From the NCBI GenBank assembly GCA_964016885.1, contig OZ024740.1, positions 343,914,001 to 343,978,000 of the forward strand: a DNA stretch of 64,000 nt, read 5' to 3'. This DNA comes from Eledone cirrhosa (taxonomy: Eukaryota). Shown here one piece after another: positions 4,764-42,101 of the stretch (positions are counted from its first letter, which is position 1; every line of letters starts with the position of its first letter). The notes beneath the pieces are model-generated. The model saw only the letters and a program-made list of their open reading frames with translations. It ran no database searches and was not told the DNA's origin. Position numbers and translations under genes: made by a program.

Positions 4764-5205
4764 TGTTTGCTGAAAATTTAAGTAAGTGACATTGTCACTA
4801 CTTTAAAACAATATCGTAAGGTCTTCAAAATGCTTTTAATTAAGCATACAGTGTATTGCAAAATACACTATATATACATTCATATATATATCGCTATTTC
4901 AGAGCACCAATTCTAATTTTCAATTTCTGCTGGACCGACGACCGCTCTTTATAATCAGTTCCTGATTATTACTAGAATTCTAGAAGAATCCAACATTCAT
5001 AATTTTCAGCAAACAGGAAGAGTAGTGAGATTTGATAAGTACCAAGAAGTACGAAACAGAGCTTTGTCAGCTTATCTCCCCTGTTTGCTCAAAATTTAAG
5101 TACGTGACAATGTCACTACTTTAAAACAATAGCGTATGGTCTTCAAAATGCTTTTAGTTAAGCATACAGTGTATTTCAAAATACACTATATATACATTCA
5201 TATAT
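4764..5205 (+). mobile_element. Partial tandem (period about 318 bp) HHR-bearing element between (TA)n tracts
   Basis: 4764-4888 repeated at 5082-5205; HHR lies in the unique part. Confidence 0.7.
5001..5096 (+). ncRNA. Type I hammerhead ribozyme, U3-A8 variant
   Basis: TTGATAA(5032)-GTAC caagaa GTAC-GAAA-CAGAGCTTTG-TC; long outer helix AATTTTCAGCAAACAGG/CCTGTTTGCTCAAAATT; proximal helix I is irregular. Confidence 0.65.
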
Positions 5206-5374
5206 ATATATATATATATATATATATATATATATATATATATGCAAAAGTTCTATTTAAAGTTGTTGGGATACAACAAGTAAATATTTTTATAACTGAT
5301 ATAAAGCACTCAACAAATTTTTGGAGTAGATATACGATATTAATAAATGGAAACTATATTTATAAAACCATATT

Positions 5375-5439
5375 TATTTCATTATACATAGTTCAGGGAT
5401 ACCACATTAAATTATGGTATGCCTTCATCAGACAAAATA
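5375..5439 (-). ncRNA. Type I hammerhead motif in 3' pLTR (GAAA mutated to GAAC)
   Basis: Minus strand: TTTTGT-CTGATGA-AGGCATACCA..TGGTATCCCT-GAAC-TATGTA-TA-ATGAAA. Confidence 0.7.
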
Positions 5440-5971
5440 CAATATATAACAGTTTTACAAATAGGTTTGACGTACCCTTTAAAATACAACCATTACTTTT
5501 GGAGGCTGTCTGGATAGTGATTTGTTTATATAATAAGTCATAGTGTTAAGCACAATTAGAAAAAGACGGAGAGAAAGAAAAAAGACGGAGAGAGAGAAAA
5601 GAACAAAGACAGAGAGAGAGAAAGAAAGAAAAGAGAAAGAAAACCTGGAGAAATATCGGAGAGAGAGAGAAAAGTATGGAGAAAAGAAAGAGATAGATAA
5701 AGATAGGAGGAAATAAAAAAGAAAGAAAAGGAAGGAATAAGAAAAACAAAGGAAAGCAACAGAGAGATATCAAGTCATCATACAGAGAGAAAAACCCAAG
5801 AGATAGAAATACTATGTAGAGAGAGGGGGGGGGGGGCAGTGACAACTTTACGTCATGTCATATTAAGTTGAGTTAACAATTTATATGAAATGAATAATAA
5901 AAATATAAATATAAGTATCAATATTCATGAATGGGACATAGATATATAATATGAGAAATTAAACATTGTTC

Positions 5972-6161
5972 AATAATTGTTTCTACTTTAGGCACAAGGC
6001 CAGCAATTATCCAGTGCATTACTGGTACTTTATTTTATCGACCCCGTAAGGATGAAAGGCAAAGTCAACCTCGGCGGGATTTGAACTCGGATCGTAAAGG
6101 GACGTAACTATGCTGGAAAGCATGGCGTCCGACCCTCTACCGATACTGCCAATCCACCGCC
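5972..6161 (-). mobile_element. SINE inserted in PLE 3' UTR
   Basis: Family consensus; 18-bp TSD TAAACATTGTTCAATAAT. Confidence 0.92.
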
Positions 6162-7155
6162 TAAACATTGTTCAATAATGACCACATGTTTAGTTTAGAA
6201 ACTTGAGATCAATATACCAAAATCCGAGTTCAAAATGTACCCTTGTTATAGAGATTAGTATTTTATGCAAAGACATACAGATATATATGTATATATACAT
6301 ACACATAGATACGCACGTCCTGAAAATAGAAATTATGTTTACTCAAGCCAACAATATAGCCATACAAAACGTAAATGATTTCTCTTAATCACTGCTATAT
6401 ACTCATTGTGTTATAAAAATTTCACAGTATATATATACAAATATATACGATTAACAATCATGTCCTCATATATACGATTACCATTCATGTGTTTAATATT
6501 ATGCACATCTGCAACATACCTCTCAACCATAGATATATACACATGCATATATACACATACATATGTATAAATAAATATTTGCGTGCGTCATCATGCATCA
6601 CTCATGTATATATACAGACACAAAAAAAATCTATAACACTTTCTATGCATGTTAATACTCACATATGCATTTGTATAGAGATAATCCAATATCATTAAAT
6701 TACCAAAGGATTATAATTTGTAAATATAACCATAACAATACAAATTTAAAATACCAAAGGAATATATTTTGGAAATGCAACTATATAGTCAAAAGAAATC
6801 TAGAAATATCAAAGCATTAAATATCATTAAAACACTATAGAGTATCTTAAGTTAAAATAATATGTTTTATATATTTAGTATAGAAATTTATCCTACGTAT
6901 ATCTCAATCAAAATAATTTAAGAGATTTAAAAAGTTAAAAAAACCCAATGATTCTACAGATAACCTTATATTTAATATAAAAATTTACCTTACGTATATT
7001 TTATTTAATACATTGGAAGTATAGATATTTTAGAGTAGTTTATTATATCCATGTTTATATTTAGGAAGAAAGTTTAAAAAGAAAAAGGTGTGAGGGAATC
7101 TAATGGATTATCGACAGGTTCCATATATTAACTAAAATTACTTAAATTAATTATA

Positions 7156-39161: not shown

Positions 39162-40285
39162 TTTCGTTTCTGAATTTGTTTAGCAAGATTCTTTATCTGA
39201 AATCGTGTGTTGAAACCGATATTGTTATACTTTGGGAGGGTCATGTTGCCAAATAATGACATAAATGGGACCTGCCCCTTGTATAGGAGCAAATTTTGGA
39301 ATAGAATAGAAAGAACTAGGAACAAAGCTAATAGAATAAACTCATGGTATGATAGCAATAAATACCAGAGTATAATGTTCATCGATACAACCCCTAGAGG
39401 TGAATTAGCTTACAAATTTAGAAGGGCCCTAAATAAACATAAACTCAATATTAAGATAGTAGAAAGACCAGGTACCTCCGTAAAAACACTCATTAGCAAG
39501 ACATACCCTTTTCAAAGACCCCCCTGTATAGATAAGAAATGTATAACCTGTAAAATAAGCCCCCATATTAACTGTAAAACTAGAAATGTAGTGTATAGCA
39601 TAAGATGTACCGAAGGACAATGTAGAGACAAAAATATAGTGTACATAGGTGAGACAGCTCGTAGTGTAGGGGAACGGATAAATGAACACTGGCGAGACCT
39701 TCAAGATAGTAAAGAATCATCTGTACTCTACCAACATGCTAAAATAGAACACAAGGGTAAATTAGAGAACATAGAAATAAAAATAGAATCTACACACAGA
39801 AAAGACGCAATGTTTAGACAAATCACAGAGGCAATAAACATAAAAGAATTACAACCAAAATTAAATAGAAAATATGAGTGGAACAGCAACATCACAACTT
39901 ACAATTAAGGACAAAATGAAAACACACACACACATAGAACAAACAATCAACCAGTAACATGTAAATAAACAAATAAATAAATGAACATAAACACACACAG
40001 ACACCCGGATGTGGCGCATGCGCAGACTGAGCACACAACACACACACAGAAACAAAATGGCGTAGGACAGAACAAAGGAGAGGCACAGAAACAAAGAAAG
40101 GAATCCCCAGTCACTGAAGAGGTCACAGAGTGTGAGACGAAAGAACTATGACAATATATAAACAACTATCTGGTTGTGGAACCAACCAACCAACCAGAAA
40201 TTTATAAATTTATTATAATAAATTGAAGTGAAAGCAACTGGTGCGTGTGTTTCTTATTGGCAACATGACCCTCCCAAAGTATAAC
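39162..40285 (+). mobile_element. 5'-truncated PLE with inverted pLTR piece; HHR 40110-40152
   Basis: 39162-39252 is the reverse complement of the pLTR end; GTCA-CTGAAGA-GGTC..GAC-GAAAGAACTA-TGAC. Confidence 0.85.
39253..39908 (+). pseudogene. PLE Cys-linker + GIY-YIG endonuclease fragment
   Basis: C..KCITC..CKTRNVVYSIRC..YIGETARSVGERINEH..RQITEAINI..LN. Confidence 0.9.
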
Positions 40286-40397
40286 ATCCTTACCGGGTTG
40301 AAAAAATAAAGAACCAGTAACGAACTGATGTCGATTTAATCGACTTTCCCCCCCACAACAAATTGCTGTCATTGTGCCTAAATCAGAAACCATTATT
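40285..40397 (+). mobile_element. Old SINE 3' half
   Basis: CATCCTTACCGGGTTGAAAAAATAAAGAACCAGTAA..TGTGCCTAAATCAGAAACCATTATT. Confidence 0.7.
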
Positions 40398-40470
40398 AAC
40401 ACTACAGCCTCTACTCATAGCACGATCTATACATCTTCCATGAATACTATTATCAGTTCTTACCTCTACT

Positions 40471-40555
40471 AATAATTGTTTCTACTTTAGGCACAAGGCC
40501 AGCAATTACCCAGTGCATTACTGGTACTTTATTTTATCGACCCCGTAAGGATGAA
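40471..40555 (-). mobile_element. SINE 3' fragment
   Basis: Core and tail match consensus. Confidence 0.85.
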
Positions 40556-41683
40556 TATTCTTCATTTTATTTGTTAAAATAGTGATGAATGAATCACTAA
40601 GCAAATGGCAGTGAGTATATATTGGTTGGCAAACGAAAATACATAATTCTGTGACGCCATCTCTATAGCAAACAATGACCTGAATCTCGCCATTAAGCTA
40701 TTTTATAATTTTCTCTTCTTTATCATATCAATTTCCTATAATTCTTGCTGTAGGTTTTGTGAAGTCCCCGTTGGATTTATACAAGCCAAGTGGAAGCCAC
40801 ATATGAAACTAACCAACTCACAGGATATGTGATGCGTTTATTTATGAAGACTTCTGTAATTATTCGGCAAATTGTTGTTGTTTCATTCCAAGTGAAGTCT
40901 GATAAAACAGACCTATGCTACAAAATGTTCCAGCTATCTATTACTCGTCTAAATTTTAGATATTAAGAATCGATGATGAAATTATGAAATATGTTTTTAA
41001 GACGATAAGGTGTGATTTGTGGATTACTTAGATGATATTTCCAGAAGGTCGAATGATCACTTCGATTCTCTCTCAGCAATCTTGTTCGTGGCGAATGATA
41101 TTCTCGGAGATAATATTTAGTTCAGTTAATTCCATCATATACAACCTTTATTCTTTGAATGTTCCCTATTTCATCTGTTTAGTGTCTCTTTTTAATCAAG
41201 GAGAATAAAAGAATGTGTAGAGTAATAAGTAAAATGCCTTGCAGTAACTAATTATTAGTTTCCTGAAGAACTTAAATATTTCCAAAACCATACATGGTAA
41301 TTGAATCAAAGATATGTAACAGATAAATCTCTCTTAAATTATACCCCACTTTCTTAAATTAATGGAAAAACTAAATATTGAACCAAAGCGGAAAATGAAA
41401 GTACGGAATGATTATGCTGTATAATTTCACCTTTTCGAGTTCACCGACCGGATACAGAAAAGCGAAGCAACAGGATTTATTACGTTTTCCGTTCTTAATA
41501 ATCACATACACACACACACATAAACACACATATATACACATGTGAGTATGTTGTGTGTATAAATATGAATATATCTTTATATGTGTTCATATATATAGGT
41601 AGTGTTTTTATATTCACTTATATTAAGGCTAAAAGGTGAGTTTTGTTACTAGCCTTAAATTAAACGAATATATATATATATAA

Positions 41684-42101
41684 GTAGAAGGGGTATTTAA
41701 TTTGTTGGAAGTCCGACAAATATAAATGTTTATAACTGATTTACAGCACTCAACAATGAACTGGAGTAAATATTCAATGATATTAAATAAATAGAAACTA
41801 TATTTATAAAACCATATTTATTTTATTATATATATTTCAAGGGTACCAAGACACATTGCTACGCTTTTATCAGATAAAATACAAAGTTTGTTTTATAAAT
41901 TCACTGGATATTTACTGCATAGACTATCCAGTGAATATCCAACCGATAAGGTATGATTTTCATAGGTATGTCTCTATTTATAAAACAAAATTTGTATTTT
42001 ATCTGATGAAAGCCTACCAATGTGTCTTGGTACCCTTGAAATATATATAATAAAATAAATATGGATTCATAAATATAGTTTCTATTTATTTAATATCATT
42101 G
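41684..42101. mobile_element. pLTR inverted pair (41775-41900 / 41976-42101) plus tail, related to the 5244-9472 family
   Basis: Shares GAAACTATATTTATAAAACCATATTTA; TA-flanked. Confidence 0.85.
41995..42057 (+). ncRNA. Type I hammerhead, canonical core
   Basis: TTTTAT-CTGATGA(42003)-AAGCCTACCAA..TTGGTACCCTT-GAAA-TATATA-TA-ATAAAA; mirror arm mutated to CTGATAA. Confidence 0.8.

What the first reader, a model, noticed from the sequence alone, without database searches (positions are those of the whole stretch)
4764..42101. Hammerhead-bearing foldback retroelement system living in (TA)n microsatellites
Seen: at least nine insertions share one layout: (TA)n, an inverted copy of the element's 3' end, a variable sense remnant, a one-sided tail, then usually (TA)n. 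They grade from near-full RT+GIY-YIG (5244-9472), through endonuclease-only (12546-13956, 39162-40285), to ORF-less hairpins (10028, 10238, 13993, 14560, 30373, 30818, 41775). Most carry a type I HHR and belong to several sequence-distinct families. Established: PLE pseudo-LTRs can be inverted and carry minimal HHRs. Inference: the ORF-less palindromes are either extreme fold-back truncation products or a non-autonomous ribozyme-hairpin family mobilised by PLE RT, with a (TA)n target preference or RT-added TA tracts.
Basis: partly seen in the sequence, partly recalled or inferred. Interest (0 to 1): 0.85.

Follow-up and report, generated by a model that had tools for sequence, protein, structure and literature searches.

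The report
Penelope hairpins built by double priming
These TA-flanked hairpins are shortened copies of known Penelope-like retrotransposons (mostly the Hydra group), and their junctions suggest that each insertion is likely made by two reverse-transcription starts on opposite DNA strands, often on a short RNA predicted to begin at the element's own promoter.

Summary
All 11 named insertions exist; 9 have (TA)n on both sides and 8 carry a full type I hammerhead (HHR). Most belong to Hydra-clade Penelope-like elements (PLEs), for which (TA)n targeting, HHRs, inverted 5' copies and one-sided tails are published; one family is Neptune/Nematis-like.

The hairpins are not one self-copying family. 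The 14560 turning point is unique. The others recur in hundreds to thousands of copies with varied centres, and the 30818 hairpins share alleles with ORF-bearing parents.

Three things add to the known picture:
(1) The tail lies on the shorter arm in 28 of 33 (family A) and 29 of 32 (family D) asymmetric insertions, and six arms are tail only, which plain fold-back cannot make.
(2) The long arm stops at one pyrimidine|A site in 24 of 56 family-A insertions, likely an RNA 5' end.
(3) 4764-5200 is not a hairpin but an ORF-less 318-nt HHR unit, retrozyme-like, inserted with PLE anatomy.

No RNA data or empty sites were obtained.

The parts
4764..5200 (+). Family R: ORF-less, retrozyme-like partial tandem (1.4 units of a 318-nt monomer, 4883-5200). 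Type I HHR with U3-A8 core at 5032, palindromic helix III and GUC cleavage triplet near 5068. (TA)n on both sides.
5244..9468 (-). Hydra-type PLE, near full length. Tail 5244-5334; pLTR 5335-5643 with HHR at 5431 (A15.1 changed); 3' UTR; RT-EN in three frames (9264-7156) with an internal deletion; inverted pLTR 9166-9468 with HHR at 9372. Tail on the long arm.
9664..9844 (-).
9952..10152 (.). Family B hairpin: about 80-nt tail plus 122-nt palindrome. It is the 3' end of a Hydra-type parent and turns inside the parent's putative HHR, so holds only half of it.
10175..10407 (.). Family C hairpin (palindrome 10235-10401 plus one-sided extension). Longer single-armed copies exist; no ORF-bearing parent was found; no full HHR.
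10669..11200 (+). GIY-YIG fragment with CX4CxxC linker (Neptune/Naiad-like), TA on the left; no HHR detected
12546..13956 (+). Family H: Hydra-type EN fragment (CxCX5C) with inverted arm 12546-12874 and tail 13829-13956; no HHR detected
13995..14380 (+). Family E short copy: 65-nt inverted arm, sense remnant with HHR at 14131, tail 14321-14380
14395..15117 (.). Family F: tail 14395-14559 plus 558-nt palindrome with a U4C-core HHR on each arm (14645 -, 15032 +). One-off truncation of a Hydra-type element; its centre is unique in the genome.
25220..25945 (+).
30187..30360 (+).
30375..30566 (+). Family I hairpin (30373-30502) with HHR at 30435 on the right arm and tail 30503-30566
30733..31158 (.). 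Family A hairpin: 88-nt tail plus 338-nt palindrome centred at about 30989, HHR on both arms (30918 -, 31061 +). It is the 3' end of an autonomous Hydra-clade element (intact 800-aa ORF in L172).
35439..35842 (-).
39163..40286 (+). Family E copy: tail plus short inverted arm (39163-39252), GIY-YIG with CX4CxxC linker and CCHH-type residues, HHR at 40114. Tail on the short arm.
41683..42101 (.). Family D hairpin: 83-nt tail on the shorter left arm, HHRs at 41873 (-, G8 changed) and 42003 (+). Long arm starts at the family's stop site (41923). Hydra-type parent.

Best explanation
The insertions are 5'-truncated copies of several (TA)n-flanked Penelope-like retrotransposon families, mostly Hydra clade, and each two-armed copy is likely made by two target-primed reverse transcriptions, one from each nicked strand. 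Steps: (1, published for Hydra; association shown here) the RT-GIY-YIG protein nicks a (TA)n array. (2, shown as two exact ends; initiation inferred from the in vitro PAc work) reverse transcription starts at two fixed RNA sites that bracket the tail, one start per strand, so exactly one arm carries the tail. (3, inferred) the two cDNA 3' ends are joined through short microhomologies or templated inserts, which gives the inverted repeat. In families A and D the tail-less start usually yields the longer arm. (4, stop site shown; cause inferred) a large share of long arms stop at one pyrimidine|A site a short way upstream of, or inside, the HHR. That site is likely the 5' end of an RNA made from the pseudo-LTR promoter, so near-identical hairpins arise again and again from different masters. 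(5, structure shown; mobiliser inferred) the ORF-less 318-nt HHR unit at 4764 is a retrozyme-like passenger that likely uses the same machinery.
For: Parents: intact 800-aa ORF with R-W, DKT, CxCX5C, CxxC/E, N/CxH and no CCHH, ending in the 30818 arm; Hydra-type parents for D, F and B. Two exact ends (+167/170 and +256); tail on exactly one arm in 100 of 104 two-armed family-A insertions. Tail on the shorter arm in 28 of 33 asymmetric family-A insertions (p=7e-5; hand tally) and 29 of 32 in family D. Six inverted arms consist of tail only and are joined to tail-less long arms. Repeated origin: 82 hairpins fall into 39 haplotypes, 8 of them (47 hairpins) shared with long arms; minor alleles lie on both arms in 276 of 332 cases; arm divergence is 1.3% within a locus and 5.5% between loci. 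Stop site: 24 of 56 family-A insertions that reach it stop there; about 1,970 loci genome-wide turn there; the same kind of site is seen in D, B, C and I. A non-parental G precedes +1 in 25 of 35 informative junctions against 5 of 25 elsewhere. Frangieh 2024 (PMC11167929): a PLE protein nicks and extends both strands, starts at two sites that bracket the tail, and is predicted to be a dimer. Schostak 2008 (PMC2377424): Penelope has an internal promoter.
Against: In family R the tail is on the longer arm in 12 of 14, and 5 of 33 family-A cases go the same way, so the order of the two starts is not fixed and self-primed fold-back can explain those cases. None of 18 upstream pLTRs of tandem copies that reach the stop site end there, although full-length RNA from that start should sometimes do so. 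The extra-G count is confounded: 7 single-base centres can be read as parental, and several G are supplied by the partner arm; without the 7 it is 18 of 28. Family E shows no sharp stop. Whether the tailed arm beyond the tail is copied from RNA or from the first cDNA cannot be told from sequence. No RNA or empty-site data were obtained.
Confidence: 0.7

Rival explanations
1. Plain fold-back: one cDNA snaps back on itself at a short palindrome and copies itself, and the endonuclease later trims the tail from one end. The stop sites are sequence-driven stalls, not RNA ends.
For: Family A's site lies at a 6-bp palindrome and 20 of 52 centres are the simple overlap. Some family-D centres show short self-copied inserts. 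Alleles are symmetric. Family R has the tail on the long arm in 12 of 14. Craig 2021 attributes the tail to EN-mediated resolution.
Against: Six arms are tail only, beside tail-less long arms. The tail is on the short arm in 28 of 33 and 29 of 32. The same sequence never stops the RT in 18 upstream pLTRs. The D, B and I sites are not 6-bp palindromes.
Confidence: 0.15
2. The hairpins are self-propagating non-autonomous families, each copied whole from a palindromic master by PLE RT.
For: The full 338-nt palindrome recurs at 40 of 40 scored loci at 97-100%. The B, C, D and I hairpins recur at similar length. Symmetric private alleles number 7 in 7,380 sites in short copies against 1 in 2,850 in long copies (small numbers, not tested further).
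Against: Centres are heterogeneous. The window's exact centre is only 2 of 52 unselected hot-spot loci, and it occurs on several haplotypes that match different long copies. 131 of 148 arm-specific variants are singletons, and the other 17 are each shared by only two loci. The 14560 centre is unique.
Confidence: 0.08
3. The hairpins are MITE-like DNA transposons that target TA repeats, or assembly artefacts, and sit near PLEs by chance.
For: They are short, palindromic, high in copy number and TA-flanked. No ORF-bearing parent was found for families C and I.
Against: Arms run directly into RT/GIY-YIG parents in A, B, D and F. Ends are asymmetric and centres vary. An exact 23-mer occurs 23,143 times with 0 control hits. 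Short-read contigs show summed depth of about 1e5-1e6 over the elements against about 10 on unique flanks.
Confidence: 0.03
4. The (TA)n flanks are added by the RT, telomerase-like, rather than being a pre-existing target.
For: TA abuts 211 of 223 ends, and both element ends finish in TA-like bases. PLE RTs are related to telomerase (Craig 2021).
Against: 4 of 15 family-A loci show long interrupted arrays with a similar interruption pattern on both sides (L032, L036, L041, L044, read by eye). Different families are chained through shared TA runs (window 9845-10407 and 13957-14394). Craig 2021 reports (TA)n insertion for Hydra.
Confidence: 0.1

Closest known systems
Hydra clade of Penelope-like elements (Craig et al. 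2021, PMC8557442; includes Hydra-1_Obim in its File S1)
   Same: C-terminal GIY-YIG without CCHH, CxCX5C linker, DKT, CxxC and CxH beside E and N, HHR in the 3' repeat, (TA)n insertion; inverted 5'-truncated copy and one-sided tail as described for PLEs generally.
   Different: Family A spans about 3.75 kb (described Hydra are generally under 3 kb); tails are 35-170 nt, not 30-40; RWK reads RWT/RWR; copy number is about 1e4 for one family. The recurrent long-arm stop site and the tail/arm-length bias were not seen in the passages read.
PAc (Poseidon, Anolis) in vitro mechanism (Frangieh et al. 2024, PMC11167929)
   Same: Both strands nicked and extended, AT-rich target, two initiation sites bracketing the tail, HHR cleavage not needed, predicted dimer.
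   Different: A different clade. The parts read do not derive the inverted repeat from two primings or report arm-length asymmetry.
Dual minimal HHRs on opposite strands, and the U3-A8 core, in Schistosoma Cercyon PLEs (Cervera and de la Pena 2014, PMC4209133)
   Same: HHR pairs 100-700 bp apart on opposite strands, read as truncated PLEs; palindromic helix III; extra purine before helix II; U3-A8 variant.
   Different: No parent-to-hairpin junction analysis or (TA)n context in the passages read.
Non-LTR retrozymes (Cervera and de la Pena 2020, PMC7229834; Li et al. 2026, bioRxiv 10.64898/2026.07.22.740005)
   Same: Family R is an ORF-less monomer of about 300 nt with a type I HHR, in head-to-tail partial tandems, in a genome with active PLEs.
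   Different: It is mostly 1-2 monomers, dispersed, with inverted 5' arms, a 35-40-nt tail and (TA)n flanks. 'Inverted', 'microsatellite' and 'target site' do not occur in the 2020 main text, and 'tail' does not occur in the 2026 text.
L1 twin priming (seen in the search listing for PMC2837659; mechanism recalled)
   Same: Two target strands prime reverse transcription and the cDNAs join by microhomology.
   Different: In L1 the second primer anneals internally and gives an inversion without duplication. Here both starts lie at the 3' end and give an inverted duplication with a one-sided tail.

Membership tests
PLE, Hydra clade (families A, B, D, F, H and the 5244 copy) | Single ORF with RT and C-terminal GIY-YIG EN | tested here: met
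   P0001, 800 aa, intact in L172; window ORFs align at 38-58%. Pfam gave only weak GIY-YIG hits and none for the RT.
PLE, Hydra clade (families A, B, D, F, H and the 5244 copy) | CxCX5C linker, no CCHH, CxxC and CxH beside the conserved E and N | tested here: met
   Family B has CxCX4C; the CxC is deleted in the 5244 copy.
PLE, Hydra clade (families A, B, D, F, H and the 5244 copy) | DKT and RWK motifs | tested here: inconclusive
   DKT is present in P0001; RWK reads RWT or RWR.
PLE, Hydra clade (families A, B, D, F, H and the 5244 copy) | HHR near the 3' end and (TA)n insertion | tested here: met
   HHR in A, D, F and the 5244 copy; putative in the B parent; none detected in H. TA at 211 of 223 family-A ends.
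PLE, Hydra clade (families A, B, D, F, H and the 5244 copy) | Generally under 3 kb | tested here: not met
   Family A spans 3,754 nt from 100 nt before the ATG to the tail end. The paper gives this as a tendency only.
PLE, Hydra clade (families A, B, D, F, H and the 5244 copy) | RT phylogeny within the clade | not tested
   No tree was built with named references. P0001 was compared by eye with the Hydra-1_Obim text shown.
PLE, Neptune or Nematis (family E) | C-terminal EN, CX2-5CxxC linker, CCHH | tested here: met
   The L363 ORF runs from the RT thumb into the EN; CX4CxxC and C-C-H-H residues were read by eye.
PLE, Neptune or Nematis (family E) | RT phylogeny separating Neptune from Nematis | not tested
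   Only broken copies were fetched and no named references were held.
Non-LTR retrozyme (family R, 4764) | ORF-less monomer of about 300 nt with a type I HHR | tested here: met
   318-nt unit complete at 37 of 40 scored loci and near-complete at the rest; 95% of cells paired in 16 copies; a second subfamily keeps helices I-III with changed sequence; no PLE ORF joined to the unit in 24 loci.
Non-LTR retrozyme (family R, 4764) | Tandem arrays of two or more complete units | tested here: inconclusive
   Two full sense monomers at 2 of 25 loci (L313, L314); most have 1 to 1.6.
Non-LTR retrozyme (family R, 4764) | Self-cleavage and circular RNA | not testable with these tools
   Needs bench work; no RNA holder was listed for the one query made.
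MITE / hairpin DNA transposon | Symmetric fixed ends, fixed length, transposase partner | tested here: not met
   One-sided tails, variable centres and RT-encoding parents.

The most novel reading that the evidence does not exclude
PLE pseudo-LTR promoters make short capped RNAs (start site to tail, about 150-260 nt) that the RT-endonuclease dimer copies twice, once from each strand of a (TA)n nick. This builds a hairpin centred on the start site, and its arms can be transcribed again. The unit that propagates would be a one-armed RNA, with the palindrome rebuilt at every insertion: a new route to non-autonomous retroelements. The 318-nt retrozyme-like unit, carrying the PLE tail, inverted arm and TA flanks, would be direct genomic evidence that PLE proteins mobilise retrozymes.
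Probability: 0.35. Interest if true: 0.75.

Novelty: new variant of a known kind. Interest (0 to 1): 0.5.

Why it matters
How PLEs make their inverted repeats and one-sided tails is stated as open in Craig 2021 and only partly answered in vitro by Frangieh 2024. This genome holds on the order of 10,000 young copies of one intact Hydra family with two exact ends, so the double-priming model and the RNA-end reading can be tested both statistically and at the bench. The 318-nt unit bears on which enzyme mobilises animal retrozymes.

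Tried and rejected
Rfam scan: no HHR family hit; the 150 rows shown (of 155) were microRNA-like or similar low-complexity matches below their gathering scores.

Pfam missed the RT altogether. The homologue search gave 18 unnamed proteins at 29-38% identity.

Sequencing runs: no RNA holder listed. 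Laying contigs of four runs on 38680-42200 showed no empty site and no bridging contig.

Earlier-findings look-ups returned nothing.

HHR cleavage site as the turning point: rejected for family A, where the pile-up is 124 nt upstream of it. Only 1 of 30 upstream pLTRs starts exactly at the cleavage site, though 9 of 30 start within the 100 nt after it.

Full-length copies starting at the stop site: 0 of 18.

Within-subfamily covariation for the family-R HHR did not exceed shuffles (one search used a mis-registered structure and is void). Support comes only from the second subfamily.

ORF-bearing parents for families C and I were not found in the loci held.

Paper searches for a double-priming model or TA-targeting PLE hairpins listed no paper describing them. 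The library lacks most subscription papers; Arkhipova 2006 and Evgen'ev and Arkhipova 2005 were not read and may hold such a model. The supplements of Frangieh 2024 and of the 2026 preprint were not seen.

Full report
Setting. The window lies at G000:C1:343914001-343978000 in an unnamed 3.0-Gb genome. It is AT-rich and full of microsatellites. Its look recalls an octopod; that is from memory and was not tested.

Observation. A strict test finds (TA)n at both ends of 9 of the 11 named insertions, at one end of 39163-40286, and only short TA runs at 30375-30566. A type I HHR descriptor gives 8 hits against a mean of 0.57 in 30 shuffles. With variant cores, 8 of the 11 carry a full motif; helix III is a palindrome in most. 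The hairpins at 10028 and 10238 hold only the GAAA half, and none was detected in 12546-13956. Rfam does not see these HHRs. The first item, 4764-5200, is a direct partial tandem and not a fold-back. At least six further pieces of the same kind lie in the interval.

What the families are. An exact 23-mer from the 30818 HHR occurs 23,143 times in the genome, with 0 hits for the control. All 63 insertions behind the first 100 hits were fetched. Several run into an RT-EN ORF, intact in L172 (800 aa), with DKT, CxCX5C, CxxC/E, N/CxH and no CCHH. These are the features given for the Hydra clade in Craig 2021 (section 11 read whole, other passages, and File S1/S2 rows). That paper also reports HHRs and (TA)n insertion for Hydra, and inverted 5' copies with a tail at either end for PLEs in general. 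The 5244-9468, 12546-13956 and 35439-35842 ORFs align to this protein at 38-58%. The 41775, 14560 and 10028 hairpins also run into Hydra-type coding sequence at other loci. Family E (13995, 39163) has a C-terminal EN with CX4CxxC and CCHH-type residues, so Neptune or Nematis type. No ORF-bearing parent was found for 10238 or 30373. Cervera 2014 (first quarter of the text and passages) already notes HHR pairs 100-700 bp apart on opposite strands as truncated PLEs.

Do turning points recur? For 14560, none of 28 other loci shares it and the exact centre occurs once. The whole 30821-31158 palindrome is matched at 40 of 40 scored loci, but that search selects for it. An unselected pattern finds about 1,970 loci turning at this site. 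Among the first 52 there are 21 different centres, and the window's type is 2 of them. The 82 hairpins examined fall into 39 haplotypes; 8 of these, holding 47 hairpins, also occur in long arms. Minor alleles lie on both arms in 276 of 332 cases, and arms differ by 1.3% within a locus and 5.5% between loci. Of 148 arm-specific variants, 131 are singletons. Families B, D and I also recur at similar length with differing centres (20 of 20 distinct in I); family C's centre is more uniform. So the hairpins arise repeatedly from different masters and are not one inherited palindrome.

Two ends, one tail. Family-A arms end at +167/170 or at +256 from the stop site. In 100 of 104 two-armed insertions exactly one arm has the tail, and 211 of 223 ends abut TA, against 6.4% background. 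Among the 63 unselected insertions, 33 had two arms of clearly unequal length and one tail; the other 30 were symmetric, single-armed, interrupted or had two tails and were left out. The tail was on the shorter arm in 28 and the longer in 5 (hand tally; statistics). Six inverted arms consist of tail alone, joined to a tail-less long arm. In family D the tail is on the shorter arm in 22 of 25 classifiable loci of 28 query-selected ones, and in 7 of 7 distinct classifiable insertions among 30 first pattern hits. A single cDNA folding back on itself can only put the tail on its long arm, so a second RNA-templated start is needed. Frangieh 2024 (first half of the text read) showed a PLE protein nicking and extending both strands from two sites that bracket the tail. 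Against a fixed order, family R has the tail on the long arm in 12 of 14 classifiable loci of 25.

The stop site. The long arm ends within -1 to +7 of one site in 24 of the 56 family-A insertions that reach it, but in 0 of 18 upstream pseudo-LTRs of tandem copies (p=3e-4). In A, B, C, D and I the limit maps to an A after a pyrimidine run in the parent, which resembles an initiator element (recalled). A non-parental G precedes +1 in 18 of 22 informative A loci and 7 of 13 D loci, against 5 of 25 other starts; one search printed 9 'other' loci, of which 5 were reclassed by eye as simple overlaps or a parental extension. Seven A cases are ambiguous and some G come from the partner arm. Six later single loci gave 3 G, two of them from the partner. 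An extra G is the mark of reverse transcription across a cap (recalled). Penelope has an internal promoter (Schostak 2008, passages). I infer that the site is an RNA 5' end. The 0 of 18 result shows that it is not a simple sequence stall, but also that ORF-bearing templates do not start there; they may be read-through, circular or HHR-cut (9 of 30 upstream pLTRs start within 100 nt after the cleavage site). This remains unexplained.

The real non-autonomous element. The 318-nt unit at 4883-5200 is matched over its whole or nearly whole length at 40 of 40 scored loci of 2,493 candidates. It occurs as 1 to 2 head-to-tail monomers, with inverted arms, a 35-40-nt tail and TA flanks, and no PLE ORF is joined to it in 24 loci. 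It holds a U3-A8 HHR with a 12-nt palindromic helix III and a GUC site; 95% of cells pair in 16 copies and a second subfamily keeps the helices with other bases. It folds better than all 100 shuffles (z -4.5). This fits non-LTR retrozymes (Cervera 2020, passages; Li 2026, first fifth and passages), except that long arrays were not seen and circular RNA is untested.

Target or added TA. Four of 15 family-A loci have long interrupted arrays with a similar pattern on both sides, and unrelated families are chained through shared TA runs. Both favour a pre-existing target. No empty site was obtained.

Verdict. The layout is the published PLE signature and most families are new Hydra members. The tail asymmetry, the recurrent stop site and the retrozyme-like unit with PLE anatomy were not found in the papers searched, and they make the insertion mechanism testable. 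Novelty: new variant of a known kind. Interest 0.5.

Noticed in passing
L141 (G000:C2, minus strand near locus 2585) and L028: The longer single-armed copies of family C carry a tRNA-like stretch (A-box and B-box-like motifs, recalled) between the two halves of a putative HHR whose loop II would be about 190 nt. The 10238 hairpin turns just after it.
   Followed up: partly
L144, L168, L395 (family B parents): A putative U3-A8 HHR core, with N7 varying between subfamilies, lies upstream of the hairpin's turning point, so the short products lack half the ribozyme.
   Followed up: partly
window 346-537, 2079-2269, 5972-6161, 23446-23596, 34713-34901, 45081-45268 and others: About 15 copies of a roughly 190-nt SINE-like repeat at 75-98% identity, one inserted in the 3' UTR of the 5244 element.
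   Followed up: no
window 24430-25050: DDE transposase-like fragment (Tc1/mariner type by eye, ORF 24157-24876) next to an assembly gap of N.
   Followed up: no
window 57809-63801: Non-LTR retrotransposon with an ORF1-like frame, an endonuclease-like frame and an 879-aa RT ORF, plus an 80%-identical partial copy at 57966-58918.
   Followed up: no
window 31562-32635: Tandem duplication of a 530-nt unit at 95% identity between two long TA arrays.
   Followed up: no
window 31293-31376 and 42118-42255: Short end fragments of two further high-copy families between TA runs; both recur in many fetched loci.
   Followed up: partly
L162, L289, L128 flanks: Another TA-flanked hairpin family with a CUGAUGA...GAAA motif that is absent from the window; at least a dozen such families seem to share TA arrays in this genome.
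   Followed up: no
L192-L221: One of 30 upstream pseudo-LTRs starts exactly at the predicted HHR cleavage site and 9 within the next 100 nt, a weak hint that long templates are ribozyme-cut.
   Followed up: partly
window 51548-53200 and 55700-56850: Long minisatellites (a 15-nt unit and a TCAC-type unit).
   Followed up: no
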